From positions 44,266 to 108,265 of the forward strand of contig CAKJYW010000002.1 in assembly GCA_918272565.1 (NCBI GenBank): a DNA stretch of 64,000 bases. Direction: 5' to 3'. Below are positions 26,903 to 62,209 of this stretch, piece by piece. The DNA is from Bacilli bacterium (GTDB lineage Bacteria; Bacillota_I; Bacilli_A; ML615J-28; CAG-698). A model generated the notes under the pieces. The model had not been told where the DNA came from and searched no databases. It saw only the letters and a list, made by a program, of their open reading frames with translations. Both the position numbers and the translations under genes were made by a program. Positions within the stretch are counted from its first letter, which is position 1. Every line of letters starts with the position of its first letter.

Positions 26903-26911
26903 TGTTCTTTA

Positions 26912-44660: not shown

Positions 44661-44704
44661 AAATCATACCTCTACATTATCTTATCACTAATCATTCTAT
44701 TTTT

Positions 44705-44745: not shown

Positions 44746-44746
44746 T

Positions 44747-47536: not shown

Positions 47537-47577
47537 AAAAATATGCTTCCCAAAAGGGAAGCATTATTTTTTATCCT
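47537..47577. terminator. Bidirectional Rho-independent terminator
   Basis: aaaaaaaTATGCTTCCCAAAAGGGAAGCATAtttttt sits between convergent genes. Confidence 0.55.
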
Positions 47578-49847
47578 ACACTATAAACTGTAGTGAATGT
47601 TTGAATGTAAGTATTTTCTAATGAGTCAGTCCATGATTGATAGTCCATACCCTTTAGAACAACTTGGCTAATACCATTTCCACCAGCAATTGTACATCCT
47701 GATACTGAATCAAAGAAGTCATGAACAGCATCATAGAATACATTAGAGTTATTCCAATACATTGCAGCTTCAACTGATTCTGGATCGTCAATCTTATTTT
47801 GGATACCAGTTCTCTTGATTGATTCTGGATCGTATGATGGATCTTCACTATAGTATCTAGCAGTTCTTAAATATAAGTCAGTCATTGCCATGTAAACATC
47901 TTCATAAGTTACTCCAGCAGGGTGAACTGCGTCACGACCTGAAGCAAACATTAATAGAGATGTACCATATTCAGCAACTCTTGTTTTATCTTTATCCATA
48001 TCATCTGGACGAGGGAATGGAACATATCCGTATCTTGTATCTTCACCCCACATGTCAGTAGTCCATCTATTATCAGCTTTAACGAACCACCAAACACCTG
48101 ATGTCATAACAGCTTTACCTTCGATGAATGCACCACTAGATTCCATCCAGCTGTTTTCACCAGTTAAAGTACCTAATGCATATAAGCTTCTTAATACTTG
48201 AGCTGCTTTTTCTTCACGAGGGTTATTTAATGTTACAGTAACACTTGTTGGGTCAGCAATCTTGATACCAGTACAGTTTACCATACCTAACCAGTAATAA
48301 TAAATACTACCAGCAAGTGCGTATTCGCCTTCACCTAATAGTGCTTGAACACCATTTGCCCACTTTTCAAATTCACTATAAGTCCAATTGCCTTCATTGA
48401 AAATCTTAGCAGGACTTTCTACTTTTAATCTTTCAACCCATGCTAGGTTGTAATATAAACCATAGTTAGCAAAGTTAGTAGTTTCATCTGGTCCAGTTGA
48501 AAGTGCATATAAGCCACCTTTATATGTAGCTGATTGCTTTAATGATAAGCTCATTTGGTTCTTACCATATTTAGCATAATAACTCTTAGCATCATGTGCA
48601 CTATTAGCACCAGCAATCTTGCTTAACCAAGCACTACTAATTACATAGAAGTCAGCTTTAGCATCACCAATTTCAGCTTGAGCGTTAATCCATTGATAAC
48701 GGCTAGCACCCCATGGAGCATCATCTGGATAAGCTTCTACACTGATTACACAGTTATAAGTAGATTCGATTTCTCTCCATGCTTGTTGCTTGAACATCTT
48801 GTCACTTCCAGCATATCCATCAAGGAATGGGTCAAGATCAGATAATGCACTATCAGCATTCATCATAACAATCTTATAGTTTTGTAAGTCAGGATATGAT
48901 GTAGGGGCAGTAGATGGAGTTACTTTAACTTTAACTCTACTACTCTTAATAGTTCCATCAGCAGTATAAGCAATAATGTATGTAGTACCTTCAGCAACAC
49001 CAGTAATTCTACCATTAGCATCGATTGTAGCTACTTCAGGTTTAGTTGATTCCCAAGTAACGTTTTGGTCAGCTCCTTGAGGTTCAACTGTTGCTCTAGC
49101 AGTTAGTTTGTAACCAACTTCTACTTCTTCAGCACTTACTTCAACAACAACTGCTGTAGGAACAACAACTTCGATAATTTCTTCTTCAGCAGGAATTACC
49201 TTAATTTCAAATGTTGCTTTAACATTAGTATCAGCAGTAGATGTAGCTGTGATTGTTACAGTACCTTCAGCAACACCAACAACATTACCTTTTGTAACTT
49301 TAGCGATTGCTTCATCGCTACTACTCCAAGTAACAGCTTTTGTAGCTTCTTCTGGAGTTGCGCTAACTGTCAAAGTTACAACTTTACCAACTTGAACTTC
49401 AGCATCACCATTAATCTCTAAAGCAGTTGGGATGATAACTTCTGGTTCAGGTGGAGTTTCTTCTTGACCTGGCTTAACAGTAACAGTGAATTCTTTCTTA
49501 ACAGCCTTATCAGCATCAGCTGTAACTGTGATTGTAGCTGTACCAGCACTAATACCAGTTACTTTTCCATCTTTTATTGTAGCAATTGCACTGCTACTAG
49601 ATGAATATCTAACTTTCTTATTTGTAGCATCATCTGGTAAAACTTTTACTGTGATAGTAAATTCTTCACCAATTTCAATTTCTTCTTTTTGTCCAGTAAT
49701 TTCAATACTAGTTGGTTTAACTTCAGTAGTTGGAGTTTTGTCATCTGGTTTTGGAGTGTCATCTTCTTTAGGATTATCTCCACCACCACATCCAATTAGT
49801 ACTACTGCTAGTACCAATACTAGAATGAAAGAAAACCATTTTTTCAT
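47571..49847 (-). CDS. Paralogous surface lipoprotein 1: signal peptide/lipobox - 3x Big_2 - SBP_bac_1-like solute-binding domain
   Basis: MKKWFSFILVLVLAVVLIGCGG. Three Ig-like repeats (ATITVTADADKAVKKEFTVTVK etc.). The C-terminal ~450 aa follows the family-1 extracellular solute-binding pattern (KIVMMNADSA..., ATYKGGLYALSTG, LYYNLAWVERLKVESPAKIFNEGNWTYSEFEKWANGVQAL). Confidence 0.55.
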   Translation of the reverse strand: MKKWFSFILVLVLAVVLIGCGGGDNPKEDDTPKPDDKTPTTEVKPTSIEITGQKEEIEIGEEFTITVKVLPDDATNKKVRYSSSSSAIATIKDGKVTGISAGTATITVTADADKAVKKEFTVTVKPGQEETPPEPEVIIPTALEINGDAEVQVGKVVTLTVSATPEEATKAVTWSSSDEAIAKVTKGNVVGVAEGTVTITATSTADTNVKATFEIKVIPAEEEIIEVVVPTAVVVEVSAEEVEVGYKLTARATVEPQGADQNVTWESTKPEVATIDANGRITGVAEGTTYIIAYTADGTIKSSRVKVKVTPSTAPTSYPDLQNYKIVMMNADSALSDLDPFLDGYAGSDKMFKQQAWREIESTYNCVISVEAYPDDAPWGASRYQWINAQAEIGDAKADFYVISSAWLSKIAGANSAHDAKSYYAKYGKNQMSLSLKQSATYKGGLYALSTGPDETTNFANYGLYYNLAWVERLKVESPAKIFNEGNWTYSEFEKWANGVQALLGEGEYALAGSIYYYWLGMVNCTGIKIADPTSVTVTLNNPREEKAAQVLRSLYALGTLTGENSWMESSGAFIEGKAVMTSGVWWFVKADNRWTTDMWGEDTRYGYVPFPRPDDMDKDKTRVAEYGTSLLMFASGRDAVHPAGVTYEDVYMAMTDLYLRTARYYSEDPSYDPESIKRTGIQNKIDDPESVEAAMYWNNSNVFYDAVHDFFDSVSGCTIAGGNGISQVVLKGMDYQSWTDSLENTYIQTFTTVYSVG

Positions 49848-49959
49848 ATCTTTCCTCCTTGGTTTTAAGATAAATGTATAGGTTATATATTATGTAAACC
49901 TTTGCATACATATTATAACATATAAATAAATCAAAAAAAATCAATTTTTTTATAAGAAA

Positions 49960-49998
49960 GAAAAAAAGACTCTCACTTCAAAAGTGAGAGCCAGTTTT
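49960..49998 (-). terminator. Rho-independent terminator of paralog 2
   Basis: On the minus strand: CTCTCACTTTTGAAGTGAGAG followed by TCTTTTTTTC. Confidence 0.5.
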
Positions 49999-50006
49999 CT
50001 ATTTAA

Positions 50007-52289
50007 TTATCCCATTGCAGAATACTTAGTATTGAATGTATTAATATAAGTATCTTCTAGAGAATCCATTGTTTGTGAGTAGTCTGCACCTGTAACGATT
50101 GTAGTAATCTTAGCGCAAAGTGGAGATGTGGCAATTGAAGTATAGAAGTCATGAACTGCATCATAGAATACGTTAGAGTTAGTCCACCACATTGCAGCTT
50201 CAACTGATTCAGGATCATCAACCTTAGAGCTGATTGCATTACGTTTCAATGTTTCAGGGTCATATGATGGATCATCACTGTAGTATCTATTAGTTCTTAG
50301 ATACATATCAAGCATTGCCATATAGATATCATCGTAAGTAACGCCAGCAGGATGAACTTTGTCACGACCTTCAGCAAACATTAATACAGTAGTACCATAT
50401 TGAGCGATTTGTTGTTGTTCTTTAGTCATATCATCTGGACGAGGGAATGGAACATAACCAAAACGAGTATCTTCACCCCACATATCACTAGTCCATCTGT
50501 TATCACCTTTCATGAACCACCAAGCACCAGAAACCATAACGCAAGTCTTATCAAAGAATGCACCAGTAGTTTCCATCCATGTATCAAATGCTGTTCCGCT
50601 TCCTAGAGCGCCTTTAGCATATAATCTACTTAATAGCTCAGCAGCTGCAACTTCACGAGGATGTTTCAAAGTTACTTTAATAGCAGCAGGGTCAGCAATC
50701 TTAATACCAGCAGCATTAGTTAATCCAACCCAGTGATAATAGTAACGTCCACCAATTGCATATTCGCCTGCACCTAATAATGCTTGAACATTAGTTGCCC
50801 ATTTTTCAAATTCACTATAAGTCCAGTTGCCTTCATTGAAGATCTTAGCAGGTGATTCAACTTTTAGTTTTTCAACCCATGCAAGGTTGTAATATAAACC
50901 TAAGTCAACATAGTTTTGAGCTTCGTTTGTACCAGTTGATAATCCATATAAGCCACCACGGTTAGTAGCTGCTTGTTTTTGAACAACGTCCATTTGGTTC
51001 TTACCATATCTAGCATAAACTAATCTTGCATCATGTGCACTATTAACACTAGCGAAGTCAGCTAACCAGCTTGATGAAATAGTTAAGAAGTCAGCTTTTG
51101 CATCGCCTAGTTGAGCTTGTGCATTGATCCAGTCAATACGAGAAGTTCCCCAAGGAGCTTCATCTGGATATGCTTCTACACTGATTGTACAGTTATAAGT
51201 AGATTCGATTTCTCTCCAAGCTTGTTGTTTGAACATCTTGTCGCTTCCAGAATATGCATCTAGGAATGGGTCTAAGTCAGCAAGTGCACTATCAGCGTTC
51301 ATTAAAATAATCTTATAGTGTTGTAAGTCAGGATATGCTTCAGGAGCAGTTGAAGGAGTAACTTTAATCTTAACACGGCTACTCTTAATAGAAGGGTCTA
51401 CCTTAGAGTAAGCGATGATGTATGTAGTACCTTCAGAAACACCTAAAATCTTACCATTTTCGTCGATTGTAGCAACTTCAGGTTTAGTTGATTCCCAAGT
51501 AACGTTTTGACTAGCACCTTGAGGTTCAACTGTTGCTCTTGCAGTTAGTTTGTAACCAACTTCAACTTCATCAGCAGTAACACTTACTGTGATAGCAGTA
51601 GGAGCTTCAGTTACAGGACCAGTTTCATCATTCTTAATAACTGTTACTTCAAATGTTGCTTTAACATTTGTATCAGCAGTTGATGTAGCAGTAATAGTAA
51701 CTTTACCTTCAGCAACGCCAAGTACGCTACCCTTAGTTACAGTTGCAATACTAGGATCACTACTTTCCCAAGTAACGCCTTTTGTAGCTTCTTCTGGAGT
51801 GTAGCTAACAGTCAAAAGGATAACTTTGTTAACTTTAACTTCAGTTTCACCACTGATTTCAATAGCAGTAGGAAGGATTACTTCTGGTTCAGGAGGAGTA
51901 ACTTCACCACCAGCTTTAACAGTTACAGTGAATTCAGCTTTAACGTTCTTATCAGCTTCAGCAGTTACTGTAATTGTAGCTGTACCAGCACTGATACCAG
52001 TTACTTTACCATCTTTAACAGTTGCGATTGCACTGCTACTAGATGAATATCTAACTTTCTTATTTGTAGCATTGTCAGGTGTAACTTTTACTGTAACAGT
52101 AAATTCTTCACCAATTTCAATTTCTTCTTTTTGTCCACTAATTTCAATCTTAGTAGGCTTTACATCTTCTACTACTGGAGTGTCATCTGGTTTTGGAGGG
52201 TCATCTGGTTTTTCTGTTTCTCCACCACCACATCCAATTAGTACTAGTGCAAATACCAATACTAGAATGAAAGAAAACCATTTTTTCAT
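50007..52289 (-). CDS. Paralogous surface lipoprotein 2 (Big_2 x3 + SBP_bac_1-like)
   Basis: Same architecture as paralog 1; closest to paralog 1 across the C-terminal domain. Confidence 0.55.
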   Translation of the reverse strand: MKKWFSFILVLVFALVLIGCGGGETEKPDDPPKPDDTPVVEDVKPTKIEISGQKEEIEIGEEFTVTVKVTPDNATNKKVRYSSSSSAIATVKDGKVTGISAGTATITVTAEADKNVKAEFTVTVKAGGEVTPPEPEVILPTAIEISGETEVKVNKVILLTVSYTPEEATKGVTWESSDPSIATVTKGSVLGVAEGKVTITATSTADTNVKATFEVTVIKNDETGPVTEAPTAITVSVTADEVEVGYKLTARATVEPQGASQNVTWESTKPEVATIDENGKILGVSEGTTYIIAYSKVDPSIKSSRVKIKVTPSTAPEAYPDLQHYKIILMNADSALADLDPFLDAYSGSDKMFKQQAWREIESTYNCTISVEAYPDEAPWGTSRIDWINAQAQLGDAKADFLTISSSWLADFASVNSAHDARLVYARYGKNQMDVVQKQAATNRGGLYGLSTGTNEAQNYVDLGLYYNLAWVEKLKVESPAKIFNEGNWTYSEFEKWATNVQALLGAGEYAIGGRYYYHWVGLTNAAGIKIADPAAIKVTLKHPREVAAAELLSRLYAKGALGSGTAFDTWMETTGAFFDKTCVMVSGAWWFMKGDNRWTSDMWGEDTRFGYVPFPRPDDMTKEQQQIAQYGTTVLMFAEGRDKVHPAGVTYDDIYMAMLDMYLRTNRYYSDDPSYDPETLKRNAISSKVDDPESVEAAMWWTNSNVFYDAVHDFYTSIATSPLCAKITTIVTGADYSQTMDSLEDTYINTFNTKYSAMG

Positions 52290-52385
52290 AAAAAATCTCC
52301 TTTTTTAATTTTTGAATTGCGGCTATGCCGCTTATATCCATTTAATATTTTACCATAAATGTAAAGCGCTTGCAATTTTTTTTTA

Positions 52386-52418
52386 CTAAAAAAAGGAGAA
52401 ACTTTTAAAGTTTCTCCA
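52386..52418 (-). terminator. Rho-independent terminator of paralog 3
   Basis: Perfect palindrome GGAGAAACTTTAAAGTTTCTCC followed on the minus strand by a 7-T run. Confidence 0.5.
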
Positions 52419-52431
52419 ATAGTCTATTTAA

Positions 52432-54678
52432 TTATCCACCATATTTATTTACAAGTGTTGTAATGTATTCGTCGATTATAGCTTCCATACCTTGTTCGTA
52501 GTCAGCACTCTTGAATACAGCATTATAAATTGCAGTACTAAATGATGAACTATCACCTGAAATACCAGCATAAATTGGGTCGAACAAAGTCTTTTCAGCA
52601 GTATAGAACAAGAATGCTTCAACTGATTCAGGATCATCTAGTTTATTAGAAACATTTTGTCTCTTAATAGCTTCAGCATCATATGATGGGTCAGCTTGAT
52701 GTAAACGAATAGTTGTTAAATACATTTCTTGTGTTGCTCTAAATACATCTTCGTAAGTAACTGATCCATGAACCCATTCACGTTGAGCTGCCATAATATA
52801 TACAGCACCAGGAATCAAGTTAACATATGTATTTTCTTTACTGATGTTTGGATGATATGGGAATGGAACATATCCATATCTTGTATCTTCACCAAACATA
52901 TCTGAAGTGTAACGAGTTGAGTGTTTAACAAACCAATATTTACCAACATGCATTAATGCTTTACCATTTTCAAAAGCATCAGCTACATCGCTTGAGTTAT
53001 CACTTGTTGGGTCATATGCACCAGCTACATAAATTTGATTTAAGATGCTTGCGGCATCAATTGCAAATCTATGTTTATAATTCATTTCTAATGTAGTAAC
53101 ATTAGCGATTCTAACACCACTAGCATTAACCATACCTTCAAATAATTTACCAACTTGTCCACTTAAAACATATGTTCCACTAGGAAGTAATGCTTGAGCA
53201 GCAAGTGCCCAGTCTAGGAAGTCATCAAATGTCCATTTGCCTTCATTAAATAATCTAGCAGGGTTTTGAATCTTATATTTTTCTAACATTCCAAGGTTAT
53301 AATAAATACCTTCATCAGCATAAGTTGATGTTCCACTTATACCAGTTGATACGGCATACATATCACCTTTAACTGAGGCTGCTTGACGAGCTGCAGGTTC
53401 AATTTGGTTCTTACCATATTTAGCAAAGAATGAAGTTGTAGCTGTCATAGCTCCACTAGAATAGAATCTTGGAACCCAGTCAGTTTCAACAACAAAGAAG
53501 TCAGCTAAAGCTTTACCAAGTTCTGCTTGAGAGTTGATCCATGTGATTCTACTTTCACCCCATGGAGCATCATCAGGATAGCCTATTACTTCAAAGCTAC
53601 AATTGAATTTTTTTCCTATTTCAGTCCAAGCTTGTTGCTTAAACATCTTATCACTTGAGCCATATCCTTCTAAGAATGGGTCAACTTCAGCAAGAGCACT
53701 ATCAGCAATCATAAATTGAATTACATAGCCTTGCATATCATTGATTGGAAAGGCAGCAGATGGGTCAGCATTAACTTTTAATTTGAATCTGCTACTCTTG
53801 ATTGTTTCATCTTTTGCGTAATAAGCAATGATGTATGTTGTACCTTCAGCGACACCTGTTACAACACCTTTATCATCGATTGTTGCAATTTCTGGTTTAG
53901 TTGATTCCCAACGAACACCATTATCAGCACCATCAGGTAAAATGTTAGCTACAAGTCTAACTGAATATCCTACTTCAACTTCACTTTCACCAGTGATAGT
54001 GATTGATTCAGGCTTTACCACTTCAACAACGCTAGCTTCTTTTACTGTGATTTCAACTGAAGCAGTTAAAGTTGCTACTTTATTTGATGTAGCTGTAATT
54101 GTTACAGTTCCTTGTTTAATACCCTTAACAACACCATTAGTGATTGTAGCGATACTTGGATCACTACTAGTCCATGTTACATCATTTGAAGCTCCATCAG
54201 GTTTAGCAGTAACTGTTAAAGCAATTGATTTACCTTCTTCAACTTCGCTCTTACCATTAATTGTAATTTCCTCTGGTAATATTTCAACTGGAGGTTCATC
54301 TCCGTTTGGTTTAACAGTAACTGTGAATTCTTTCTTAACAGCTTTATCAGCATCAGCTGTAACTGTGATTGTAGCTGTACCAGCACTAATACCAGTTACT
54401 TTTCCATCTTTTATTGTAGCAATAGCGCTACTACTAGTTGAATATCTAACTTTCTTATTTGTAGCATCATCTGGTAAAACTTTTACAGTAATTGTAAATT
54501 CTTCACCAATTTCAATTTCTTCTTTTTGTCCAGTAATTTCAATACTAGTTGGTTTAACTTCAGTAACAACTGGTTCTGGATCTTTTCCTTGTTCCTTTTC
54601 AGGTTCTTTTTCTCCACCACAACCAATTAGTACTACTGCTAGTACCATAACTAGAATGAACGAAAACCATTTCTTCAT
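52432..54678 (-). CDS. Paralogous surface lipoprotein 3 (Big_2 x3 + SBP_bac_1-like)
   Basis: Start set at MKKWFSFILVMVLAVVLIGCGG (Met 5 of the track ORF). Its C-terminal domain is closer to paralog 4 than to paralogs 1 and 2. Confidence 0.55.
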   Translation of the reverse strand: MKKWFSFILVMVLAVVLIGCGGEKEPEKEQGKDPEPVVTEVKPTSIEITGQKEEIEIGEEFTITVKVLPDDATNKKVRYSTSSSAIATIKDGKVTGISAGTATITVTADADKAVKKEFTVTVKPNGDEPPVEILPEEITINGKSEVEEGKSIALTVTAKPDGASNDVTWTSSDPSIATITNGVVKGIKQGTVTITATSNKVATLTASVEITVKEASVVEVVKPESITITGESEVEVGYSVRLVANILPDGADNGVRWESTKPEIATIDDKGVVTGVAEGTTYIIAYYAKDETIKSSRFKLKVNADPSAAFPINDMQGYVIQFMIADSALAEVDPFLEGYGSSDKMFKQQAWTEIGKKFNCSFEVIGYPDDAPWGESRITWINSQAELGKALADFFVVETDWVPRFYSSGAMTATTSFFAKYGKNQIEPAARQAASVKGDMYAVSTGISGTSTYADEGIYYNLGMLEKYKIQNPARLFNEGKWTFDDFLDWALAAQALLPSGTYVLSGQVGKLFEGMVNASGVRIANVTTLEMNYKHRFAIDAASILNQIYVAGAYDPTSDNSSDVADAFENGKALMHVGKYWFVKHSTRYTSDMFGEDTRYGYVPFPYHPNISKENTYVNLIPGAVYIMAAQREWVHGSVTYEDVFRATQEMYLTTIRLHQADPSYDAEAIKRQNVSNKLDDPESVEAFLFYTAEKTLFDPIYAGISGDSSSFSTAIYNAVFKSADYEQGMEAIIDEYITTLVNKYGG

Positions 54679-54751
54679 GTTTACCTCCAAGAATAATTCT
54701 TTGTAAGCCTTTTCTTACATATATATTTTATCATACATAGCAATATCAAAC

Positions 54752-54780
54752 AACAAAAAAAGCATGATTAATCATGCTTT
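54752..54780 (-). terminator. Rho-independent terminator of the MscS gene (hairpin spans its stop codon)
   Basis: On the minus strand: AAGCATGATTAATCATGCTT followed by a 7-T run. Confidence 0.45.
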
Positions 54781-55703
54781 TCTTCTTCACTTTTTTTATC
54801 TCTATAACTAACAGTTATTTGGTTGAATGGAATAGTAATATTATTCTCATTGAATATTAAATATAATTCTCTATTTAAATCACGTTGAACCTGATAAATA
54901 TCACTTTCTTTACACTTAGCAATGAATAACAAGTTGACACTTGATGATCCTAGTTCACTTACACCTTTGTAAATAGGCGCATCGACCATTCCATTAACAT
55001 TCTTCTTTAATCTTTCAATATTTTGTTTAAATACTTCTTCTACTCTCTTTAAATCCTCACCATAATCGATACTCATAGTACATTTAGCATAAGATAATTC
55101 TGATGTTTGGTTGATAATGTTTTTAATATCACTGTTATTAATTATCTTAACATTACCACCAGCATCCATAACTTTAGTCACTCTAATACCGATGTCACTA
55201 ACTGTGCCTCTAAATCCATCAATTGTTATGATATCACCAACTTCATATTCTCCCTCAAATACGATGAAGAAACCAGCGATGATGTCAGCTATCAAACTTT
55301 GAGCACCAAGACCTATAACTAGGGCTAAAATACCAGCACTAGCTAGTAGAGTTGAAGTATCAACTCCAAAGGCACCAAGTACAAGTAGTATTGTAATAAT
55401 GATTACTACCCATTTAATAATACTTTTAATTAGACCTAAAATAGTCTTAGCTTTGTTTGACTTTGAAAATGTCTTTTCAGCAACAAAATGAACAATATAA
55501 ATAATCCATGCACTAACAGTAACAATTTGGAATGATTTGATTGCTGCAGGGATCTTTGTCCATAAGAAATTAATTACTGTATTTTGAAATTGATAAGTGA
55601 AAAATATGGAATTTCCACCTGTTATAAAACCTTGAAAAGCCGCAATAGCCACAGTTATTGCAAGCATTACTACTAATGCTATAAAACCTCTACTTATTTT
55701 CAT
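54768..55703 (-). CDS. Mechanosensitive ion channel family protein (MscS-like)
   Basis: Three TM helices, then the MscS beta-domain ...GAQSLIADIIAGFFIVFEGEYEVGDIITIDGFRGTVSDIGIRVTKV...; 311 aa. Confidence 0.75.
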   Translation of the reverse strand: MKISRGFIALVVMLAITVAIAAFQGFITGGNSIFFTYQFQNTVINFLWTKIPAAIKSFQIVTVSAWIIYIVHFVAEKTFSKSNKAKTILGLIKSIIKWVVIIITILLVLGAFGVDTSTLLASAGILALVIGLGAQSLIADIIAGFFIVFEGEYEVGDIITIDGFRGTVSDIGIRVTKVMDAGGNVKIINNSDIKNIINQTSELSYAKCTMSIDYGEDLKRVEEVFKQNIERLKKNVNGMVDAPIYKGVSELGSSSVNLLFIAKCKESDIYQVQRDLNRELYLIFNENNITIPFNQITVSYRDKKSEEEKHD

Positions 55704-55714
55704 AAAATGTCCTC

Positions 55715-56545
55715 CTATATTGAAACATATGTGTCAAGTAGCGAATATACTTCGCCATTATAAATACAAGTAATAACAAGGTGGATATGCTCTTTATTAG
55801 TGAAATCAGCTTCACTAATATCTATTCTTTGTTCGGTAGTGTATCCATCCAAAAAAAAGTACTCTATCTCATTCCCTTTATCATCACTTAAATACGCTTT
55901 AAATTCATAATATGTATATTCCGTATCAATAAAATCAAGCTTTATATGGAAGCATCCATCGATATTACACTTACATTCGTAACTTACTTTAATATCACCA
56001 ATATCAGTAACTATAACATCATGTTGCTTCTTAGTCTTAACTTCAATTTCTTTGATTACATCATTACCATATCTTTCTTCTCCACAAACAGCTAATTTGT
56101 AGCTTGTCTCAGCTTCTAGTTCCATAAACTCACCAGAATTAAAACCACTATAACCAATCACTTCGTATTCATAGTTATCATTATACAATTTGATTGTTAA
56201 ATCTTCAGTGCTTTCTCCGATATCGATGTGATAAAAGATTTCATTTTCTCCAACTTCGACCATCTCAAACTCTACATTAGGTCGCTCATTTAAGATATCC
56301 ATATTTAGAATAAATAGTGTAGCCACAACCGCAACAGTTCCGGTTGCAGCAGTGTAAGTCATAGCTTTAATAATAGTATTAATGGTATCCATTATTTTAT
56401 TACTCTTTTTGCTAGTACCACTACTATTTGTTGCCCCCACATTAAATTCATCTGGAATTTGATATTCTTTTGCTTCACTAAATTCATTTGGTTGGGTGTT
56501 CGTTGGCTTTGGAGTGGATACTATTTCATTGAATTCGTCTTTCAT
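55715..56545 (-). CDS. Hypothetical bitopic membrane protein (cytoplasmic N-tail, one TM, extracellular beta-rich domain)
   Basis: TM segment AATGTVAVVATLFILNM; no recognisable motifs. Overlaps the upstream gene by 4 nt, suggesting translational coupling. Confidence 0.3.
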   Translation of the reverse strand: MKDEFNEIVSTPKPTNTQPNEFSEAKEYQIPDEFNVGATNSSGTSKKSNKIMDTINTIIKAMTYTAATGTVAVVATLFILNMDILNERPNVEFEMVEVGENEIFYHIDIGESTEDLTIKLYNDNYEYEVIGYSGFNSGEFMELEAETSYKLAVCGEERYGNDVIKEIEVKTKKQHDVIVTDIGDIKVSYECKCNIDGCFHIKLDFIDTEYTYYEFKAYLSDDKGNEIEYFFLDGYTTEQRIDISEADFTNKEHIHLVITCIYNGEVYSLLDTYVSI

Positions 56546-58116
56546 ACGATTAGTCCCCTCCTTTTTAGTATAATTACACCTACTACGCTCACTATAGCAA
56601 TCGAAGAAAAAGTGAGGATCATTGCTAGATATGGAGTCTTTTCATATTTCACTAAATAGATATTGCTAATATCTTTTGTTTTAATGACAATTTTTTTATC
56701 ACTATAAACGTAGTCTACTTTTTTTCTAACGCCATCAGTAAAGGTAAATAGATCAAAATCACCTATACCATCTAAATCATCATAAATAGTAATGACAACA
56801 TCACTATCAAAATGCTCTATAACATTATAAGTATCATCTATAATAGTAATAGTATACATTTTATTAGCCCAATCGACGTCAGCTACATTCTTGTATACAT
56901 TAAGTGAATAGTTACCAGTTGCGCTAGTTACGCCTTTAGCACTAGCCCTATATTGATAATCTTCATTGTAATATTCTTTGCTAGTTTCTATAACTACCTT
57001 TTCTATATCATTAATATTACTTAATAATTCACTTCTTAAATTATCTACTTCGTTTCTTAAAGTTAAGTCGGGAAGTAAATCAAAACTATCATCAATCAGC
57101 TTTTTAACTCTAATCAAGTTTTCACTAGTATAGATTTCTTTTAATTTTGCTTCACTATAGAAATCATTAAAATAATTAACAAATCTTTCTTTTGCTTGTA
57201 AAAGATAGACATAATCTTTTCCCTCATTATAGAAATTATCAAGTTCTTCACTCTTTTCTATAACATAGAAATCTCTATCACTATAACATCTATCATATAG
57301 AAAGCCACTTACACTACTAACATACAATGATACTTTACTAACAACTTCTTCTTCATCATGAACATTTAGTAATGCAAGGATTTTATTACTAACTATAATC
57401 TTTTCTTCTTCATATTTAGCTTTCTCTAAATAGTCATCTATAAATAAATCGCTATATCCTTCTTCTTCGCTTCTTTCTATAATATACCTTGAATAAAGGA
57501 TATTAAAAGAACTATAATCACTAGCTATGGTTTCTAAAGAAGATATATCATTTTCATCTATATCATCGAAATCTTTTTGTAATATAGGGTATTTTGCCTC
57601 TATTGCCTCTTTTAAAGCTTCCCTAATATCTTCTTCTACAACACTTCTTAACACCGAGAACTCAATATATTCGTTATCGTTTATAGATTGTAAAATATCT
57701 TCTTCATACTTTTCTATAATAATAGAATAATCTAAACCTAAGTCTTCTTTTAGAATCTCAAGGTGGTTTCTACCAAGGTCACTAAATTCTTCATATATTT
57801 CATTAATCAGTTCATCTATCTTATTATAGAGTTCTTCTATTTCTATATCTATATCTAAGTAATATGACAAAGAATCAATATAACTATCTAAACTTTCATC
57901 ATAGTCATAATCATATCCTTTTAGTGGACTAATTCTTTCACTAAATTGATCGATTAGTTCTTGTCTATATTCTAAATCATCTTCGGCTTCACCTGTCCCT
58001 GTTGGGTCATCCCCCGGTGCTGCAAGGATAGATACACCAAAAGAAAAGACAAAAAGAATTAAGATAAATGATAATATTAACTTTTTGGCATTAATTTTAT
58101 TCATAATCTTCACCAA
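56542..58116 (-). CDS. Hypothetical highly acidic secreted protein with N-terminal signal peptide and C-terminal TM anchor (KRRGLIV tail, no LPXTG)
   Basis: Signal KKLILSFILILFVFSFGVSILAAPGDD. Overall D/E/Y-rich with predicted helices. C-terminal YLAMILTFSSIAIVSVVGVIILKRRGLIV. 524 aa. Confidence 0.3.
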   Translation of the reverse strand: MVKIMNKINAKKLILSFILILFVFSFGVSILAAPGDDPTGTGEAEDDLEYRQELIDQFSERISPLKGYDYDYDESLDSYIDSLSYYLDIDIEIEELYNKIDELINEIYEEFSDLGRNHLEILKEDLGLDYSIIIEKYEEDILQSINDNEYIEFSVLRSVVEEDIREALKEAIEAKYPILQKDFDDIDENDISSLETIASDYSSFNILYSRYIIERSEEEGYSDLFIDDYLEKAKYEEEKIIVSNKILALLNVHDEEEVVSKVSLYVSSVSGFLYDRCYSDRDFYVIEKSEELDNFYNEGKDYVYLLQAKERFVNYFNDFYSEAKLKEIYTSENLIRVKKLIDDSFDLLPDLTLRNEVDNLRSELLSNINDIEKVVIETSKEYYNEDYQYRASAKGVTSATGNYSLNVYKNVADVDWANKMYTITIIDDTYNVIEHFDSDVVITIYDDLDGIGDFDLFTFTDGVRKKVDYVYSDKKIVIKTKDISNIYLVKYEKTPYLAMILTFSSIAIVSVVGVIILKRRGLIV

Positions 58117-58157
58117 TTTTTATATTAATATTTTAATATAAATAGCCCATTTTTACA

Positions 58158-58198
58158 ATAAAAAAATCCCAAGTAGGATTAAATTCCTACTTGGGATA
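58158..58198 (-). terminator. Rho-independent terminator of paralog 4
   Basis: On the minus strand: ATCCCAAGTAGGAATTTAATCCTACTTGGGAT followed by a 7-T run. Confidence 0.5.
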
Positions 58199-58205
58199 TT
58201 ATTCG

Positions 58206-60458
58206 TTATGCATATAATTCTAAGAACTTCAAGTAAATATCATTATAAGCAGCATCAATTGCTTCAATAAAGTCAGTGTTGTTTTTAACAACAGATGAGA
58301 TTGTTGTTGCTGGAGCGCCACTATAGTTAAGGGCGATACCATTGAAGATTGGGTCAAACAAAGTCTTTTCAGCTGTATAGAACATACAAGCAGTTACAGA
58401 CTCAGGATCATCAAACTTAGCTGATAATACTTGGCTCTTAATACCTTCTGCATCAAATGAAGCATCTTGTTGTTGATACTTAATTGTATTTAAGAACATT
58501 TCTTGCATTACTCTAAATACATCTTCATAAGTCATTCCAGCTTTATGATTATATGTTCTTTGAGCAGCCATCATGTAGCATGACTCACCAACAGCATTTA
58601 CATAGCTTCTTTCTTTACCAACTGATGCAGCATATGGGAATGGAACATATCCGTATCTTGTATCTTCACCCCACATGTCTGTTGGGAATCTATTAGATGC
58701 TTTTACAAACCATAATTCACCATCTTGACATAAAGCTGTTCCACCTTGGAAGGAAGCAACACCTTGGTCATATCCATAAACTGGGTCAAATGCACCAGCT
58801 AGTTGAGTACTTTTAAGTACATCAATTGCTTCAACTGAGTATTTATGAGTGAAGTTAAGTTCCATTGTTGTTGTGTTTGCAATTCTAACACCACTAGCTG
58901 AAACCATACCTTGCCAATAGTCTTGAGGAGCACCACTTAATACATAATATCCTTGAGGAAGCAATGCTTGAGCTGAAAGTACCCAGTCAAGGAAATCATC
59001 ATAGCTCCAACGACCTTCATTGAACATCTTTGCAGGTGATTCAATCTTATATTTTTCAAGCATACCTACATTATAGAAGATTCCATAATATGGATAGATT
59101 GTAGTTTGATTGATACCTGTAGAAACGATATATAAATCGTTTTTGTATGAAGCTGATTGACGAACAGCTGGTTCAATTTGGTTCTTACCAAACTTAGCAA
59201 AATATGTTGTAGTTGCTTGCATTGCATTTGCTGCATAGAATTGAGGGAACCAAGTTGATGTAACAATGTAGAAGTCAGCTAAAGCTTTACCATTTTCAGC
59301 TTGTGAGTTAATCCAAGAAACTCTACTTGGACCCCAAGGAGCATCATCAGGATAAGCTACAACAGAGATATTACAGTTGTATTTAGACTTAACTTCTTCC
59401 CATGCTCTTTGTTTATACATTTTATCAGTAGCAGTATAGTCTTCAAGGAATGGATCAATGCTACTTAAAGCACTATCTGCTTGCATAATTACGATTTCAT
59501 ATCCACCTAAGTCATTAACAGGAATTAATGAAGATTGGTCAATATTAACTTTTACTTTGTAACGACTACTCTTGACAGTTTCATCAGCTACAGAATAAGC
59601 GATAATATAAGTAGTACCTTCGCTTACTCCAGTTACAATACCTTTTTCATCGATTGTAGCAATTTCTGGTTTAGTTGATTCCCATCTAATTGTATTATCA
59701 GCTCCATCAGGTAAAACTGTTGCTGAAAGTCTAATAGAATAACCAACTTCAACTTCTTCTTCACCATTTAATGTTATTGATTCAGGTTTAATAACAACAA
59801 CTTCTTGAGTTGGAATAACTTTGATAACGATTGTTGCTTTAATATTAGCATCGATTGTTGAAGTAGCAGTAATTGTTACTTCACCTTCTTTAATACCTTT
59901 AACAATTCCGTTATTAACAGTTGCGATTGCCTCATCACTACTAGTCCAAGTTAAGCCTTTTGTAGCATTTGTTGGAGTATATGTAACTTGCAAGTTAAGC
60001 ATCTTACTAACTTGAACCTCAGCTCCACCACCAATTTCAAGTTCAGTTGGAGGAATAATTTCAGGTTCAGGTGGAGTATCCTCTTGACCTGCTTTTACAG
60101 TAACAGTAAATTCTTTCTTAACAGCTTTATCAGCATCTGCTGTAACAGTGATTGTAGCAGTACCAGCACTAACACCAGTTACTTTTCCATCTTTAACACT
60201 AGCAACACTACTGTTACTAGATGAATAACGTACCTTTTTGTTTGAAGCATTGTCTGGTAAAACTTTTACAGTAATAGTAAAATCTTCACCAATTTCAATT
60301 TCTTCTTTTTGTCCACTAATTTCAATACTAGTAGGCTTAACATCTTCTACTGCTGGAGTTGGTCCAGGTGTTGGTTCTGGTTCTTCTTCCTTACCACCAC
60401 ATCCAATTAGTACTAGAGCTAATACCATAACTAGAATAAAAGAAAACCACTTTTTCAT
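58206..60458 (-). CDS. Paralogous surface lipoprotein 4 (Big_2 x3 + SBP_bac_1-like), distal gene of an amino-sugar utilisation operon
   Basis: MKKWFSFILVMVLALVLIGCGG; same architecture as paralogs 1-3; lies immediately downstream of GNAT-nagB-GH3-permease on the same strand. Confidence 0.55.
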   Translation of the reverse strand: MKKWFSFILVMVLALVLIGCGGKEEEPEPTPGPTPAVEDVKPTSIEISGQKEEIEIGEDFTITVKVLPDNASNKKVRYSSSNSSVASVKDGKVTGVSAGTATITVTADADKAVKKEFTVTVKAGQEDTPPEPEIIPPTELEIGGGAEVQVSKMLNLQVTYTPTNATKGLTWTSSDEAIATVNNGIVKGIKEGEVTITATSTIDANIKATIVIKVIPTQEVVVIKPESITLNGEEEVEVGYSIRLSATVLPDGADNTIRWESTKPEIATIDEKGIVTGVSEGTTYIIAYSVADETVKSSRYKVKVNIDQSSLIPVNDLGGYEIVIMQADSALSSIDPFLEDYTATDKMYKQRAWEEVKSKYNCNISVVAYPDDAPWGPSRVSWINSQAENGKALADFYIVTSTWFPQFYAANAMQATTTYFAKFGKNQIEPAVRQSASYKNDLYIVSTGINQTTIYPYYGIFYNVGMLEKYKIESPAKMFNEGRWSYDDFLDWVLSAQALLPQGYYVLSGAPQDYWQGMVSASGVRIANTTTMELNFTHKYSVEAIDVLKSTQLAGAFDPVYGYDQGVASFQGGTALCQDGELWFVKASNRFPTDMWGEDTRYGYVPFPYAASVGKERSYVNAVGESCYMMAAQRTYNHKAGMTYEDVFRVMQEMFLNTIKYQQQDASFDAEGIKSQVLSAKFDDPESVTACMFYTAEKTLFDPIFNGIALNYSGAPATTISSVVKNNTDFIEAIDAAYNDIYLKFLELYA

Positions 60459-60518
60459 AAAAATCTCCTTTTCTTATTCTTACAATATTATTCTATCATT
60501 TTTAGATAAGTAAATCCA

Positions 60519-61472
60519 CTATTCAGTTAGTTTAATCTTATATTTGTTATAACATTTCCAAACTTCATAATTAAATGTTTGGTAATATTCCATTAAACCA
60601 GTCCAATCGATGAACAAATTATCATGTCCTTCTAAATGTAGGCTATAGAAAGCATTATTAAAGATTTCTCTAGAAACACCTTGTCCCCTATAATCCCTAT
60701 CTACTCCCAGTGGACCAATTCCAATTAAATCATCAAACCTATCACTCCAAGTGATATTATATGAATAATTATCCTTACTTGGTGTATTAATTTTTAAAAA
60801 TCCAATTACTTTATCTTTATCTAAGGCAAGAAAATAACACCTTAAGTCTTTATTAATACTTAAGTACTCTTCAAGTTCAAAGTTCCATCTACCAGGGAAG
60901 TTCTTAACCATAAAAGCGCGAAGTGATGGAATGTCACTATCCTTCATATAGCGGTAGACATAATTAGTTTTATTCTTCACTTCATTACTAAATGGCTTAA
61001 TCATAAGTAAATCATGAGTAATTCCCAAAAAACTAAAGCCACGTTTTTCTAAAAAATTAGTTGTTAAGTTATCAAAATCACTAGGAACTCCAGGGAAGAA
61101 ATTACCTAAATCTTGTCCCATCCAAACTTCTTCTTTTCCTAATTTTTTAAATTCTTCTAACGCTTTGTCTAAAAGCATAGAACCTATACCATTTTTTCTA
61201 CTCTTCCTTTTAACAAAGAATAAGCTAATCCAACCTCTAGTTTTATATGCACTTATTAACTCACCATCATATATTTTAGAAATAATGAATCCTACTAATT
61301 CATTATCTAAAAATGCGCCAAAAGACGCATTTTTATAAAGATATGGCGAGTTAGTAACATGATGATTAAATAAACCTTCGTTTATTGGATACATGAAACC
61401 TAGTTCACTGTTCCAAAGTTCTCTACATTTATCATAATCACTAAAACTGTTAAAACTCTTTATTTCAATCAT
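60519..61472 (-). CDS. GNAT-family N-acetyltransferase (tandem acetyltransferase folds)
   Basis: RKSRKNGIGSMLLDKALEEFKKLG and DYRGQGVSREIFNNAF acetyl-CoA-binding-like motifs; 317 aa. Confidence 0.55.
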   Translation of the reverse strand: MIEIKSFNSFSDYDKCRELWNSELGFMYPINEGLFNHHVTNSPYLYKNASFGAFLDNELVGFIISKIYDGELISAYKTRGWISLFFVKRKSRKNGIGSMLLDKALEEFKKLGKEEVWMGQDLGNFFPGVPSDFDNLTTNFLEKRGFSFLGITHDLLMIKPFSNEVKNKTNYVYRYMKDSDIPSLRAFMVKNFPGRWNFELEEYLSINKDLRCYFLALDKDKVIGFLKINTPSKDNYSYNITWSDRFDDLIGIGPLGVDRDYRGQGVSREIFNNAFYSLHLEGHDNLFIDWTGLMEYYQTFNYEVWKCYNKYKIKLTE

Positions 61473-62194
61473 TTAGCAAGTCCTAATGCTGCTTCATCAA
61501 CAATGATGATAGCATCTTTGTGTCTATTTAGAATTGAAGCTGGACAGTTTTCTGTAACTTCACCGCTTAATAACATCTTAATAGCATCAACCTTATTAGC
61601 GCCACTTGCAATTAGAAGAACCTTCTTTGCTTGCATAATGTTCTTAATACCCATAGTCATTGCATATGTTGGTACTTCATCAATAGAGTTAAAGAATCTC
61701 TTGTTGTCTTGTCTAGTCTTTTCAGTTAGTTTAACAACAAATGTTTCTTGATCAAATGAAGTTCCAGGTTCATTAAATCCAATGTGTCCATTAGCACCAA
61801 TTCCTAATAATTGTAGATCAATTGTAGCTTTATGTAATAAGTCATTATATTCATCACATAATTTTTGAAGGTCACTTCCTTCAGAGTTAGGGATGTGAAC
61901 ATTTTCCTCTTTAATATCAACATGATAGAAAAGATTTCTATGCATAAATGAATAGTAACTTTCTGGATGTGATTTTGGAAGTTGGCAATATTCATCTAAG
62001 TTATAAGTCTTAACATCTTTGAATGATATTTCACCTTTTTCATACATCTTAATTAGGTTTTGATATAAACCAATTGGACTACTTCCAGTAGCTAATCCTA
62101 AAGTACAATCAGGTTTTGCTTTAATTAAGTCAGCAATAATACCTGCTGCAACCTTACTTAATTCTTCATAATTCTTAACTTTAATTACTTGCAT
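61469..62194 (-). CDS. nagB: Glucosamine-6-phosphate deaminase
   Basis: TLGLATGSSPIGLYQNLIKMYEKGEISFKDVKTYNLDEY; 241 aa. Confidence 0.85.
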   Translation of the reverse strand: MQVIKVKNYEELSKVAAGIIADLIKAKPDCTLGLATGSSPIGLYQNLIKMYEKGEISFKDVKTYNLDEYCQLPKSHPESYYSFMHRNLFYHVDIKEENVHIPNSEGSDLQKLCDEYNDLLHKATIDLQLLGIGANGHIGFNEPGTSFDQETFVVKLTEKTRQDNKRFFNSIDEVPTYAMTMGIKNIMQAKKVLLIASGANKVDAIKMLLSGEVTENCPASILNRHKDAIIIVDEAALGLAK

Positions 62195-62209
62195 AATAAT
62201 TCTTCCTTT

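What the first reader, a model, noticed from the sequence alone, without database searches (positions are those of the whole stretch)
47571..60458. Family of four ~750-aa lipoproteins (lipobox - 3x Big_2 - solute-binding domain) with near-identical DNA blocks, arranged as a tandem array
Four genes (47571-49847, 50007-52289, 52432-54678, 58206-60458) encode the same architecture. The C-terminal ~450 aa follow the family-1 extracellular solute-binding (SBP_bac_1) pattern, fused behind three Ig-like domains. Only paralog 4 is operon-linked to a transporter and catabolic genes; the others are orphan SBPs. Stretches of ~190 nt are almost identical between non-adjacent copies (e.g. ~49531-49720 vs ~54361-54550), as are the first ~60 nt of all four genes. 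That indicates ongoing gene conversion, while the central regions diverge. Poly-A/poly-T tracts of 7-9 nt lie upstream of paralogs 1 and 2 (49925-49950, 52360-52395). This could be a glycan-capture or surface-variation system.
Basis: partly seen in the sequence, partly recalled or inferred. Interest (0 to 1): 0.7.

Follow-up and report, generated by a model that had tools for sequence, protein, structure and literature searches.

The report
Ig-stalked sugar-binding lipoprotein paralogs, 5' gene conversion
Four neighbouring genes encode membrane-anchored sugar-binding receptors held on three Ig-like domains; one belongs to a cell-wall-sugar uptake operon, the other three are conserved extra receptors, and repeated gene conversion keeps only their membrane-proximal ends alike, so this is a tidy but fairly ordinary expanded nutrient-receptor family and not a surface-variation system.

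Summary

Paralog 4 sits in a conserved position behind GH3 NagZ-like, NagB and GNAT genes. In a 98.5%-identical strain, two MalF/G-type permeases lie just beyond the window edge. In relatives the same locus also carries NamZ, a GH3-MupG fusion, AnmK and MurQ-like genes, so it looks like a peptidoglycan amino-sugar uptake locus.

Paralogs 1-3 each have their own promoter-like site, RBS and terminator. They have 1:1 orthologs in two other species, with SBP-domain dN/dS of 0.09-0.19.

Gene conversion is strongly supported but is confined to the 5' module (signal peptide, linker, Ig1):
- p1/p3 share a 259-nt tract at 96% identity.
- Related species have perfect 369-nt and 440-nt tracts between different partner pairs.
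- Orthologs are only 73-86% identical in the same segment.

Phase or antigenic variation is not supported. A/T runs are ordinary intergenic content, no invertons or silent cassettes are present, and conversion homogenises the copies.

Most likely these are several receptors of differing specificity feeding one ABC importer. I rate it a new variant of a known kind, of moderate interest.

The parts
58206..60458 (-). Paralog 4 (750 aa): lipobox, disordered linker, Ig1 (aa 44-122), Ig2 (139-215), Ig3 (227-305) and an SBP domain (320-750). It occupies the conserved position of the cognate SBP in the amino-sugar ABC operon.
52432..54678 (-). Paralog 3 (748 aa), same architecture. It is an orphan SBP with its own promoter-like site, RBS and terminator.
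   Evidence: (SBP_bac_8 at 28.7 bits). Orthologs are x3/y3 at 81-83% nt identity.
50007..52289 (-). Paralog 2 (760 aa), same architecture, orphan SBP.
   Evidence: Orthologs are x2/y2 at 83-89% nt identity.
47571..49847 (-). Paralog 1 (758 aa), same architecture, orphan SBP.
   Evidence: Orthologs are x1/y1 at 83-88% nt identity.
49470..49728 (-). Gene-conversion tract in p1 (Ig1 module), 96.1% identical to the p3 tract.
   Evidence: (family D1). dS for p1-p3 is 0.185 here versus ~1.0-1.1 in the SBP domain.
54307..54565 (-). Partner tract in p3 (Ig1 module). The short-read contig L042 of a sister strain ends inside it.
   Evidence: where the L042 alignment ends at window position 54537. Also.
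51888..52170 (-). Homologous Ig1 segment of p2 (84% identical to p1).
   Evidence: (family D1).
60066..60348 (-). Homologous Ig1 segment of p4 (86% identical to p1).
   Evidence: (family D1).
60519..61472 (-). Double-GNAT acetyltransferase immediately upstream of p4. This position is conserved in relatives.
61469..62194 (-). NagB, glucosamine-6-phosphate deaminase.
   Evidence: One search gives TIGR00502 at 305 bits against a cut-off of 237.
62210..63745 (-). GH3 beta-N-acetylhexosaminidase (NagZ-like) with no signal peptide. In sister strains the two ABC permeases lie directly upstream, beyond the window end.
   Evidence: (205.6 bits against a cut-off of 207).
58166..58197 (-). Intrinsic terminator after p4.
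52395..52417 (-). Intrinsic terminator after p3. It is followed by an A9 tract that abuts the -35 hexamer of the p2 promoter-like site (TTGCAA-17-TAAAAT, 52347-52375).
   Evidence: The tract is A9 here and A8 in another strain.
49968..49992 (-). Intrinsic terminator after p2. An extended -10 (TGTTATAAT, 49912-49920) for p1 lies downstream of it.
47543..47564 (.). Bidirectional terminator between p1 and the convergent DUF3737 gene.

Best explanation
These are four receptor (solute-binding) lipoproteins of a CUT1-type sugar ABC importer. Each is tethered to the membrane by a lipid anchor and held away from it by a flexible linker and three Big_2 Ig-like domains.

Paralog 4 is the cognate receptor of an operon with this gene order: Yip1, DUF5696, two MalF/G-like permeases, cytoplasmic NagZ-like GH3, NagB, GNAT, SBP. 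In related genomes the operon continues with DUF624, NamZ, a GH3-MupG fusion, a BadF-type sugar kinase, AnmK and a MurQ-like gene. The transported substrates are therefore most likely peptidoglycan-derived GlcNAc/MurNAc oligosaccharides or muropeptides.

Paralogs 1-3 are old duplicates, older than the split of at least three species. They are individually transcribed and kept under purifying selection. They most likely bind different but related glycans and deliver them to the same permease pair, with an ATPase encoded elsewhere.

Recurrent, lineage-specific gene conversion homogenises only the 5' module (signal peptide, linker, Ig1, sometimes into Ig2). The ligand-binding domains evolve as separate orthogroups.

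Shown here: architecture, fold, synteny, orthology, purifying selection and the conversion tracts. Inferred: the ligand class, the sharing of one translocator and the spacer role of the Ig stalk.
For: Domains and fold:
- Big_2 x3 in every copy.
- The AF2 model of the C-terminal domain has pLDDT 93.9.
- A family profile hits SBP 4g68 at E 4e-7.
- The full-length model shows a disordered stretch at aa 1-37 and a second flexible break at 125-132 after Ig1.

Operon context:
- GH3, NagB and GNAT lie upstream of p4.
- L042 (98.5% nt identity to the window) and L043 show Yip1, DUF5696 and two BPD_transp_1 genes directly upstream.
- The permeases resemble UgpA/E and MalF/G.
- This gene order recurs in about a third of the 38 genome loci. 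NamZ, GH3-MupG, AnmK and MurQ-like genes were confirmed by Pfam only in L038; for the other loci they are inferred from matching ORF-length patterns.

Orphan status of p1-p3:
- No ABC component was recognised in the 64-kb window. This rests on reading the translations plus partial Pfam scans, not a full annotation.
- Each of p1-p3 has its own terminator and promoter-like site.

Conservation:
- The order p4-x-x-MscS-p3-p2-p1 is identical in a second species.
- The p3-p2-p1 trio is present in a third species.
- SBP-domain nt identity is 81-89% between orthologs and 58-77% between paralogs.
- Ortholog dN/dS is 0.09-0.19.

Conversion:
- Ig1 nt identity is 96% for w1-w3, 100% for x3-x4, 100% for y1-y2 and 94% for x1-x2, while orthologs are 73-86%.
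- Ig1 dS is 0.185 (w1-w3) or 0 (x3-x4, y1-y2), against about 1 in the SBP domain.
- Site-pattern topology switches at about nt 600.
- Perfect runs reach 369 nt and 440 nt.

Family breadth: multi-copy SBP families and stalks of 0 to about 7 Ig domains are typical of this clade.
Against: - No ligand or transport data exist. The substrate is inferred from neighbours only.
- In this species the NamZ, MupG, AnmK and MurQ-like genes are not next to p4. Two unknown proteins and MscS follow it instead.
- Three of the four paralogs have no Pfam SBP hit at E<=0.1.
- Sharing of one permease pair by four SBPs is untested. Other permease pairs could exist elsewhere in the genome, which I could not inspect.
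- No ABC ATPase is in the locus.
- The 100%-identical tracts in metagenome contigs could be partly inflated by assembly smoothing of repeats. However, the window itself and a second strain show the same pattern.
Confidence: 0.6

Rival explanations
1. Contingency or surface-variation locus. On this reading the paralogs are alternative surface antigens, as with mycoplasma Vlp/Vsa/Vsp lipoproteins. Expression would be switched by homopolymer slippage, and sequences shuffled by gene conversion to evade phage or host immunity.
For: - The genes encode multicopy surface lipoproteins with a conserved signal peptide in a Mollicutes-related lineage.
- A/T tracts lie in the intergenic regions, and one of them (A9 vs A8) differs between two strains.
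- The linker region of p1 is replaced between strains, with 13 SNPs plus a 12-nt indel in the first ~100 nt.
- Gene conversion exists.
Against: - A/T runs of >=7 occur at 6.6 per kb in all intergenic DNA here, and 14 of 23 spacers have one.
- The variable A tract abuts the -35 hexamer and does not lie in the 17-nt spacer. The other tracts are terminator tails.
- No homopolymer of length 7 or more lies in the 5' coding regions (one search run list).
- No inverted repeats flank the promoters, and no recombinase was recognised among the locus genes scanned.
- All four genes are complete and each has an RBS, a promoter-like site and a terminator.
- Conversion homogenises the membrane-proximal module, while the exposed SBP domains are stable orthogroups with dN/dS 0.09-0.19.
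- Strains are ~98% identical across the array, with no SNP clusters in the SBP domains.
Confidence: 0.07
2. Non-transport glycan-capture proteins. On this reading the orphan paralogs p1-p3 no longer dock to any permease. They would act as cell-surface lectins or adhesins on Ig stalks, holding polymeric peptidoglycan or host or microbial glycans near surface enzymes, or mediating attachment to prey or neighbour cells. This would be analogous to SusE/F-type surface glycan-binding proteins.
For: - Orphan copies are a stable feature of the family, including stand-alone copies in unrelated contexts (L039, L040).
- One such context recurs, with a ~700-aa gene and a ~1150-aa gene beside the copy. In L040 these are annotated as a ClpB-like AAA protein and TRCF/Mfd. 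For L014, L018, L021, L025 and L036 the match is by ORF length only.
- Ig stalks of up to about 7 domains are longer than a permease-docking receptor obviously needs.
- The family is small and divergent from canonical SBPs: only 291 of 1.84 billion representatives match at E<=1e-3.
Against: - The fold is a complete two-lobe SBP, with high-confidence lobes and hinge.
- p4-type members are embedded between permeases and catabolic genes.
- Multiple SBPs serving one translocator is common (established knowledge: HisJ/LAO, OppA paralogs, AliA/AliB/AmiA).
- Long flexible tethers do not prevent docking.
Confidence: 0.2
3. Redundant recent duplicates. On this reading the four genes are functionally equivalent dosage copies, and their similarity simply reflects recent tandem duplication, not conversion.
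For: - p1, p2 and p3 are arranged in tandem.
- p1 and p2 are 72% identical at the amino-acid level.
Against: - Paralog SBP domains are 38-68% identical, with dS of about 0.6-1.8.
- Each paralog has 1:1 orthologs in two other species.
- Topology differs between the 5' segment and the rest of the gene.
- Ig1 is more similar within genomes than between orthologs.
Confidence: 0.03

Closest known systems
Family-1 (Pfam SBP_bac_1/SBP_bac_8; structural cluster of MalE, UgpB, GacH, GltA) lipoprotein receptors of CUT1 carbohydrate ABC importers in Gram-positive bacteria
   Same: - The proteins carry a lipobox anchor.
- p4 is linked to MalF/G- and UgpA/E-like permeases and to cytoplasmic glycosidases.
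- There is no ATPase in the operon, as in systems served by a shared MsmK/MsmX-type ATPase (PMC7658222).
   Different: - About 300 aa of N-terminal linker plus three Big_2 domains precede the SBP domain. The number ranges from 0 to about 7 across the family.
- The sequences are very divergent: 9-16% identity to solved SBPs, and Pfam thresholds are mostly not reached.
- The operon also carries Yip1 and DUF5696 genes of unknown role.
Multiple or orphan SBPs sharing one translocator (e.g. Borrelia OppA1-5, S. pneumoniae AliA/AliB/AmiA, E. coli HisJ/ArgT), cited from established knowledge
   Same: One permease pair has one operon-encoded receptor. Several additional, separately transcribed paralogous receptors have diverged binding domains.
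   Different: Sharing is not demonstrated here. The receptors carry Ig stalks, and their 5' modules evolve in concert by gene conversion.
Peptidoglycan amino-sugar recycling and scavenging loci (NagZ, NamZ, MupG, AnmK, MurQ, NagB), as in B. subtilis, S. aureus and Tannerella
   Same: The enzyme set around p4-type genes in relatives matches. NagZ-like GH3 and NagB are adjacent in the window. A cytoplasmic Amidase_2 fusion and a GKRP/MurQ-like SIS protein lie elsewhere in the window.
   Different: - Uptake here would be by an SBP-dependent ABC importer. The known systems use the PTS (MurP), MurT or AmpG.
- In this species the NamZ-to-MurQ block is not adjacent to p4.
- Full-text searches on related terms returned no paper describing this locus type.
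Mollicute variable surface lipoprotein families (Vlp, Vsa, Vsp), cited from established knowledge
   Same: Multicopy lipoproteins with a highly conserved 5' end and signal peptide, showing recombination among copies, in a Mollicutes-related lineage.
   Different: - There is no phase-variable promoter tract, no invertase and no silent cassette.
- The variable part is a conserved, selected ligand-binding domain.
- Conversion homogenises the copies and does not diversify them.

Membership tests
Family-1 extracellular solute-binding proteins (SBP_bac_1/SBP_bac_8, MalE-like) | Two alpha/beta lobes joined by a hinge (periplasmic-binding-protein type II fold) | tested here: met
   [not shown]
Family-1 extracellular solute-binding proteins (SBP_bac_1/SBP_bac_8, MalE-like) | Score above the Pfam gathering threshold for an SBP model | tested here: inconclusive
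   p3 scores 28.7 bits against a cut-off of 27 for SBP_bac_8. p1, p2 and p4 have no SBP hit at E<=0.1. Several homologs carry precomputed PF01547 hits. A family profile hits SBP 4g68 at E 4e-7.
Family-1 extracellular solute-binding proteins (SBP_bac_1/SBP_bac_8, MalE-like) | Export signal with a lipobox cysteine (Gram-positive-type tethering) | tested here: met
   All four copies begin MKKWFSFILV..VLIGC-GG. A lipobox-like motif is present in 168 of 200 family members.
Family-1 extracellular solute-binding proteins (SBP_bac_1/SBP_bac_8, MalE-like) | Genetic linkage to two MalF/G-type membrane permeases | tested here: met
   This is met for p4 only, and only outside the window. Two BPD_transp_1 genes lie upstream of GH3 in L042 (98.5% nt identity) and in L043. 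It is not met for p1-p3.
Family-1 extracellular solute-binding proteins (SBP_bac_1/SBP_bac_8, MalE-like) | Binds a solute and delivers it to the translocator | not testable with these tools
   Requires binding and uptake assays.
Big_2 bacterial Ig-like domains | Pfam PF02368 match above threshold and a beta-sandwich fold | tested here: met
   Each paralog has three stretches, at 111-124 bits against a cut-off of 22.8. The full-length model has all-beta modules at aa 44-122, 139-215 and 227-305.
Phase- or antigen-variable lipoprotein systems (mycoplasma Vlp/Vsa/Vsp type) | A slippage-prone repeat inside the promoter spacer or coding 5' end, or a promoter inversion by a site-specific recombinase | tested here: not met
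   The tracts lie upstream of the -35 hexamer or are terminator tails and occur at background density. No inverted repeats flank the promoters, and no recombinase was recognised among the locus genes scanned.
Phase- or antigen-variable lipoprotein systems (mycoplasma Vlp/Vsa/Vsp type) | Rapid diversification of the exposed region between strains or species, or silent donor cassettes | tested here: not met
   SBP domains have dN/dS of 0.09-0.19 with 1:1 orthologs. Strains are ~98% identical. All copies are full length with their own expression signals.
Peptidoglycan (MurNAc/GlcNAc) utilisation locus | Co-located NagZ, NamZ, MupG, AnmK, MurQ and NagB genes | tested here: inconclusive
   The window has a NagZ-like GH3 and NagB next to p4. 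NamZ, GH3-MupG, AnmK and a MurQ-like gene flank p4-type genes in relatives, confirmed by Pfam in L038 and inferred from ORF-length patterns elsewhere. They do not flank p4 in this species.

The most novel reading that the evidence does not exclude
The concerted evolution of the signal-peptide, linker and Ig1 module may not be neutral. It could be maintained because Ig1 docks every receptor paralog onto one shared membrane assembly, perhaps the conserved Yip1-DUF5696-permease unit. That would create a multi-receptor, stalk-mounted 'antenna' with which gut Acholeplasmatales-like Bacilli harvest other bacteria's cell-wall fragments. This would be a Gram-positive/Mollicute counterpart of Sus-like surface glycan capture, using an ABC importer for muropeptides that has not been described.
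Probability: 0.12. Interest if true: 0.7.

Novelty: new variant of a known kind. Interest (0 to 1): 0.42.

Why it matters
This defines an uncharacterised, clade-restricted SBP subfamily. Only 291 representative clusters out of 1.84 billion match it. Members carry a variable-length Ig stalk and are embedded in what looks like an ABC-based peptidoglycan-fragment uptake locus. The hosts are poorly known gut Bacilli: Acholeplasmatales, Izemoplasmatales and 'Coprobacillus CAG' MAGs.

It is also a clean natural example of domain-restricted concerted evolution. The anchor and stalk module is homogenised within genomes, while the ligand-binding domains keep separate orthologous identities.

On the practical side, the repeated tract breaks short-read assemblies, so copy number will be under-called in MAGs.

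The parts themselves are all familiar: SBP lipoproteins, extra orphan receptors, and gene conversion among tandem paralogs.

Tried and rejected
- Single-sequence search of the p3 SBP domain against PDB found only chance hits, Kelch at E 0.08. Fold and profile searches were needed.
- NCBIfam gave only sub-threshold hits, for example 'invert_tail' at 24 bits against a cut-off of 37, on the signal peptide and linker. I treated these as compositional.
- Synonymous third-position identity alone was weakly discriminating, because codon bias gives a baseline of 0.5-0.7. I replaced it with dS, topology and cross-species tests.
- GC-biased gene conversion as the cause of the locally raised GC (0.35-0.39) was rejected. 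GC3 in the paralogs is 0.07-0.24 and lowest in Ig1, which is not above other genes (~0.2). The excess GC therefore comes from amino-acid composition.
- A search for invertons and tandem repeats found only terminators and an 18-nt duplication in the p2 linker.
- Literature searches on NamZ/MupG with ABC SBPs, Ig-like SBP lipoproteins in Acholeplasma, DUF5696, Big_2 with SBP_bac_1, and SBP gene conversion returned no paper describing this system.
- The afdb50 fold library was unavailable.
- Binding-pocket comparison among paralogs was not possible, because model coordinates are not exposed.

Full report
**Observation**

The window is AT-rich (about 30% GC) and almost all genes are on the minus strand. 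ORFs at 47571-49847 (p1, 758 aa), 50007-52289 (p2, 760 aa), 52432-54678 (p3, 748 aa) and 58206-60458 (p4, 750 aa) are present as described. The ORF of p3 runs to a TTG at 54690, but the conserved start with a GGAGG RBS is at 54678.

All four start MKKWFSFILV...LIGC-GG, a lipoprotein signal with a lipobox. A Pro/Glu/Asp-rich linker follows. Pfam finds three Big_2 stretches in each copy (E 1e-32 to 2e-36). It finds a borderline SBP_bac_8 hit only in p3, at 28.7 bits against a cut-off of 27. tblastn finds no fifth copy in the window. p1, p2 and p3 are head-to-tail. p4 is separated from p3 by two unknown genes and an MscS channel gene.

**The C-terminal domain**

- An AlphaFold2 model of p4 residues 307-750, built on 56 family sequences, is very confident (pLDDT 93.9, pTM 0.90).
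- Foldseek against PDB gives 851 hits at E<=1e-3. The 50 listed are carbohydrate ABC receptors or MBP fusion proteins, including GacH, UgpB, Thermotoga MalE, the lacto-N-tetraose-binding GltA and RafE.
- A family profile detects SBP 4g68 at E 4e-7 and GacH at E 1e-3 by sequence.
- The full-length model (pLDDT 87) shows a disordered N-terminus (aa 1-37), Ig1 (44-122), a flexible break (125-132), Ig2 (139-215), Ig3 (227-305) and the SBP domain (320-750).

**Context**

Upstream of p4 lie a cytoplasmic NagZ-like GH3 (205.6 bits against a cut-off of 207 for beta-N-acetylhexosaminidase), NagB (TIGR00502, 305 bits) and a double-GNAT protein. I recognised no ABC permease or ATPase anywhere in the window. 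That rests on reading the translations and on partial Pfam scans.

The transporter lies just beyond the window edge:
- A public contig from a sister strain (L042, 98.5% nt identity over window 54537-64000) continues upstream with two BPD_transp_1 permeases, DUF5696 (1060 aa) and Yip1. The permeases resemble UgpA/E and MalF/G.
- A related species (L043) has the same order.

Across 38 loci from species-representative genomes, this gene order recurs in about a third: [DUF5696][permease][permease][GH3][NagB][GNAT][Ig-SBP]. These loci come from Acholeplasmatales, Izemoplasmatales, 'Mollicutes', 'Coprobacillus CAG:698' and Bacilli MAGs, mostly from gut or anaerobic samples. In many of them the order continues with genes whose lengths match DUF624, NamZ, a GH3-MupG fusion, a BadF-type kinase, AnmK and a MurQ-like etherase. 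Those identities were confirmed by Pfam only on L038.

p4 is thus the positional ortholog of the receptor of a CUT1 importer inside a peptidoglycan amino-sugar utilisation locus. The ligand class is an inference from neighbours. The window also holds a cytoplasmic Amidase_2 fusion and a GKRP/MurQ-like SIS protein, which fit this theme.

**The orphan copies**

Each of p1-p3 is followed by an intrinsic terminator (47543-47564, 49968-49992, 52395-52417). Each is preceded by an RBS and a promoter-like element.

They are not recent, disposable duplicates:
- The order p4-unknown-unknown-MscS-p3-p2-p1 is conserved in a second species (L043).
- The p3-p2-p1 trio is present in a third species at another site (L044).
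- In the SBP domain, nt identity is 81-89% between orthologs and 58-77% between paralogs.
- Ortholog dN/dS is 0.09-0.19.
- Extra copies, either tandem or stand-alone, are common across the clade.

**Gene conversion**

Within the window:
- p1 and p3 are non-adjacent and only ~43% identical in SBP amino-acid sequence. They share a 259-nt tract at 96.1% identity (49470-49728 versus 54307-54565).
- Parsimony-informative site patterns favour (p1,p3 | p2,p4) over (p1,p2 | p3,p4) in nt 1-600, by 33 sites to 21.
- They favour (p1,p2 | p3,p4) thereafter, by 206 sites to 29.
- The longest p1-p3 concordant run has permutation p<=0.0005.

The cross-species comparison is decisive:
- In Ig1, nt identity is 96% for w1-w3, 100% for x3-x4, 94% for x1-x2 and 100% for y1-y2.
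- Orthologs are only 73-86% identical in the same segment.
- Ig1 dS is 0.185 for w1-w3 and 0 for x3-x4 and y1-y2. It is about 1 for the same pairs in the SBP domain and 0.4-1.5 for orthologs in Ig1.
- Perfect runs reach 369 nt (x4/x3, gene nt 28-396) and 440 nt (y2/y1, nt 100-539).

Conversion is therefore recurrent and lineage-specific, and it uses different partner pairs in each species. It is confined to the 5' module. In this window the tract ends at the flexible linker after Ig1.

Two further observations fit this picture. A second strain (L046, 98.1% identical) has a replaced p1 linker allele and in-frame linker indels. The short-read contig L042 ends inside the p3 tract.

One caveat applies. 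Perfect identity in metagenome assemblies could be slightly inflated by repeat smoothing.

**Phase or antigenic variation**

This reading is not supported:
- A/T runs of >=7 occur at 6.6 per kb of intergenic DNA, and 14 of 23 spacers carry one.
- The cited tracts are terminator tails or lie upstream of the -35 hexamer.
- The only tract that differs between strains near a promoter (A9 versus A8 at 52376-52384) does not change the -35/-10 spacing.
- There are no invertons. The only tandem repeat in the paralogs or their spacers is an 18-nt duplication in the p2 linker.
- The exposed SBP domains are conserved and are not diversifying.

**Family-level view**

An exhaustive HMMER scan of 1.84 billion representative proteins finds only 291 relatives at E<=1e-3. 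The N-terminal extension before the SBP domain is multimodal. Its peaks correspond to 0, 1, 2, 3 (the commonest), 4, 5 and 6-7 Ig domains. Pfam counts 1 to 5 Big_2 stretches in the examples tested. The Ig stalk is therefore a variable-length spacer characteristic of this subfamily.

**Verdict**

The transporter linkage of p4 is true but lies outside the window. The surface-variation idea is not supported.

The most likely mechanism is one ABC translocator for peptidoglycan-type amino-sugar oligosaccharides, served by one operon-encoded receptor and three accessory stalk-mounted receptors of diverged specificity. Their anchor and Ig1 modules evolve in concert.

Confidence is high (>0.9) for anatomy and conversion, and about 0.6 for the shared-translocator and peptidoglycan-ligand mechanism.

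I rate it a new variant of a known kind, of moderate interest.

Noticed in passing
window 55715-58116 (two ORFs: 56542-58116 and 55715-56545): Two proteins with no Pfam or NCBIfam hit lie directly downstream of p4. The 524-aa one is acidic, with an N-terminal signal or TM segment and a C-terminal TM anchor. The other is 276 aa. The pair is conserved in that position in the sister strains (L042, L046) and in L043; L001 has ORFs of similar length (515 and 281 aa) in the same place. Their function is unknown.
   Followed up: partly
window 30685-32937: A 750-aa protein with no signal peptide fuses an N-acetylmuramoyl-L-alanine amidase domain (Amidase_2) to an aldo/keto reductase and a 4Fe-4S dicluster domain. 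This is an unusual fusion. It would fit intracellular processing of imported muropeptides.
   Followed up: partly
window 25901-28726: A PfkB sugar kinase sits next to a 604-aa GKRP/MurQ-like SIS-domain protein. This may be another amino-sugar phosphate module.
   Followed up: partly
window 20059-24324: A 1421-aa ORF has no Pfam hit at E<=1e-4. No function is assigned.
   Followed up: no
L042, locus positions 1-4519 (just beyond window base 64000 in a 98.5%-identical strain): A 581-aa unknown protein, a Yip1-domain membrane protein and a 1060-aa DUF5696 protein precede the two permeases. The DUF5696-permease-permease arrangement recurs upstream of GH3 in several of the fetched loci (Pfam-confirmed in L038, L042 and L043). 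A full-text search for DUF5696 found no paper.
   Followed up: partly
L046 positions 15231-18599, corresponding to window ~44660-44747: A sister strain carries an insertion of about 3.7 kb between the CapD-like gene and the aminotransferase gene. It holds seven small ORFs and a YafQ/RelB toxin-antitoxin pair, and is absent from the window.
   Followed up: no
L014, L018, L021, L025, L036, L040: A second recurrent context exists for a stand-alone family member. In L040 it sits next to a ClpB-like AAA protein, Mfd (TRCF) and Pth. The other five loci show matching ORF lengths only. This suggests a stable orphan receptor lineage in Acholeplasmataceae and Bacilli MAGs. L040 also carries sporulation genes (GerQ, SpoVT, SleB-like), so not all hosts are wall-less.
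   Followed up: partly
window 47571-60458 (N-termini of p1-p4): There are sub-threshold NCBIfam hits to NF058595 'lipo-invert putative C-terminal anchoring domain' (19-25 bits against a cut-off of 37) over the signal peptide and acidic linker. These are probably compositional.
   Followed up: no
window 91-2361, 6774-8138, 10719-11937, 28883-30685: The window holds several other predicted lipoproteins with the same LxGC lipobox style. One is a 756-aa protein with an HExxH-like zinc-protease motif. Another is a BspA-type LRR plus Big_2 protein. The organism appears rich in surface lipoproteins.
   Followed up: no
window 52176-52212: An 18-nt tandem duplication encodes the PDDPPKPDD repeat in the p2 linker. 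A 3-nt in-frame indel relative to strain L046 falls in the same stretch, so linker length is mildly polymorphic.
   Followed up: partly
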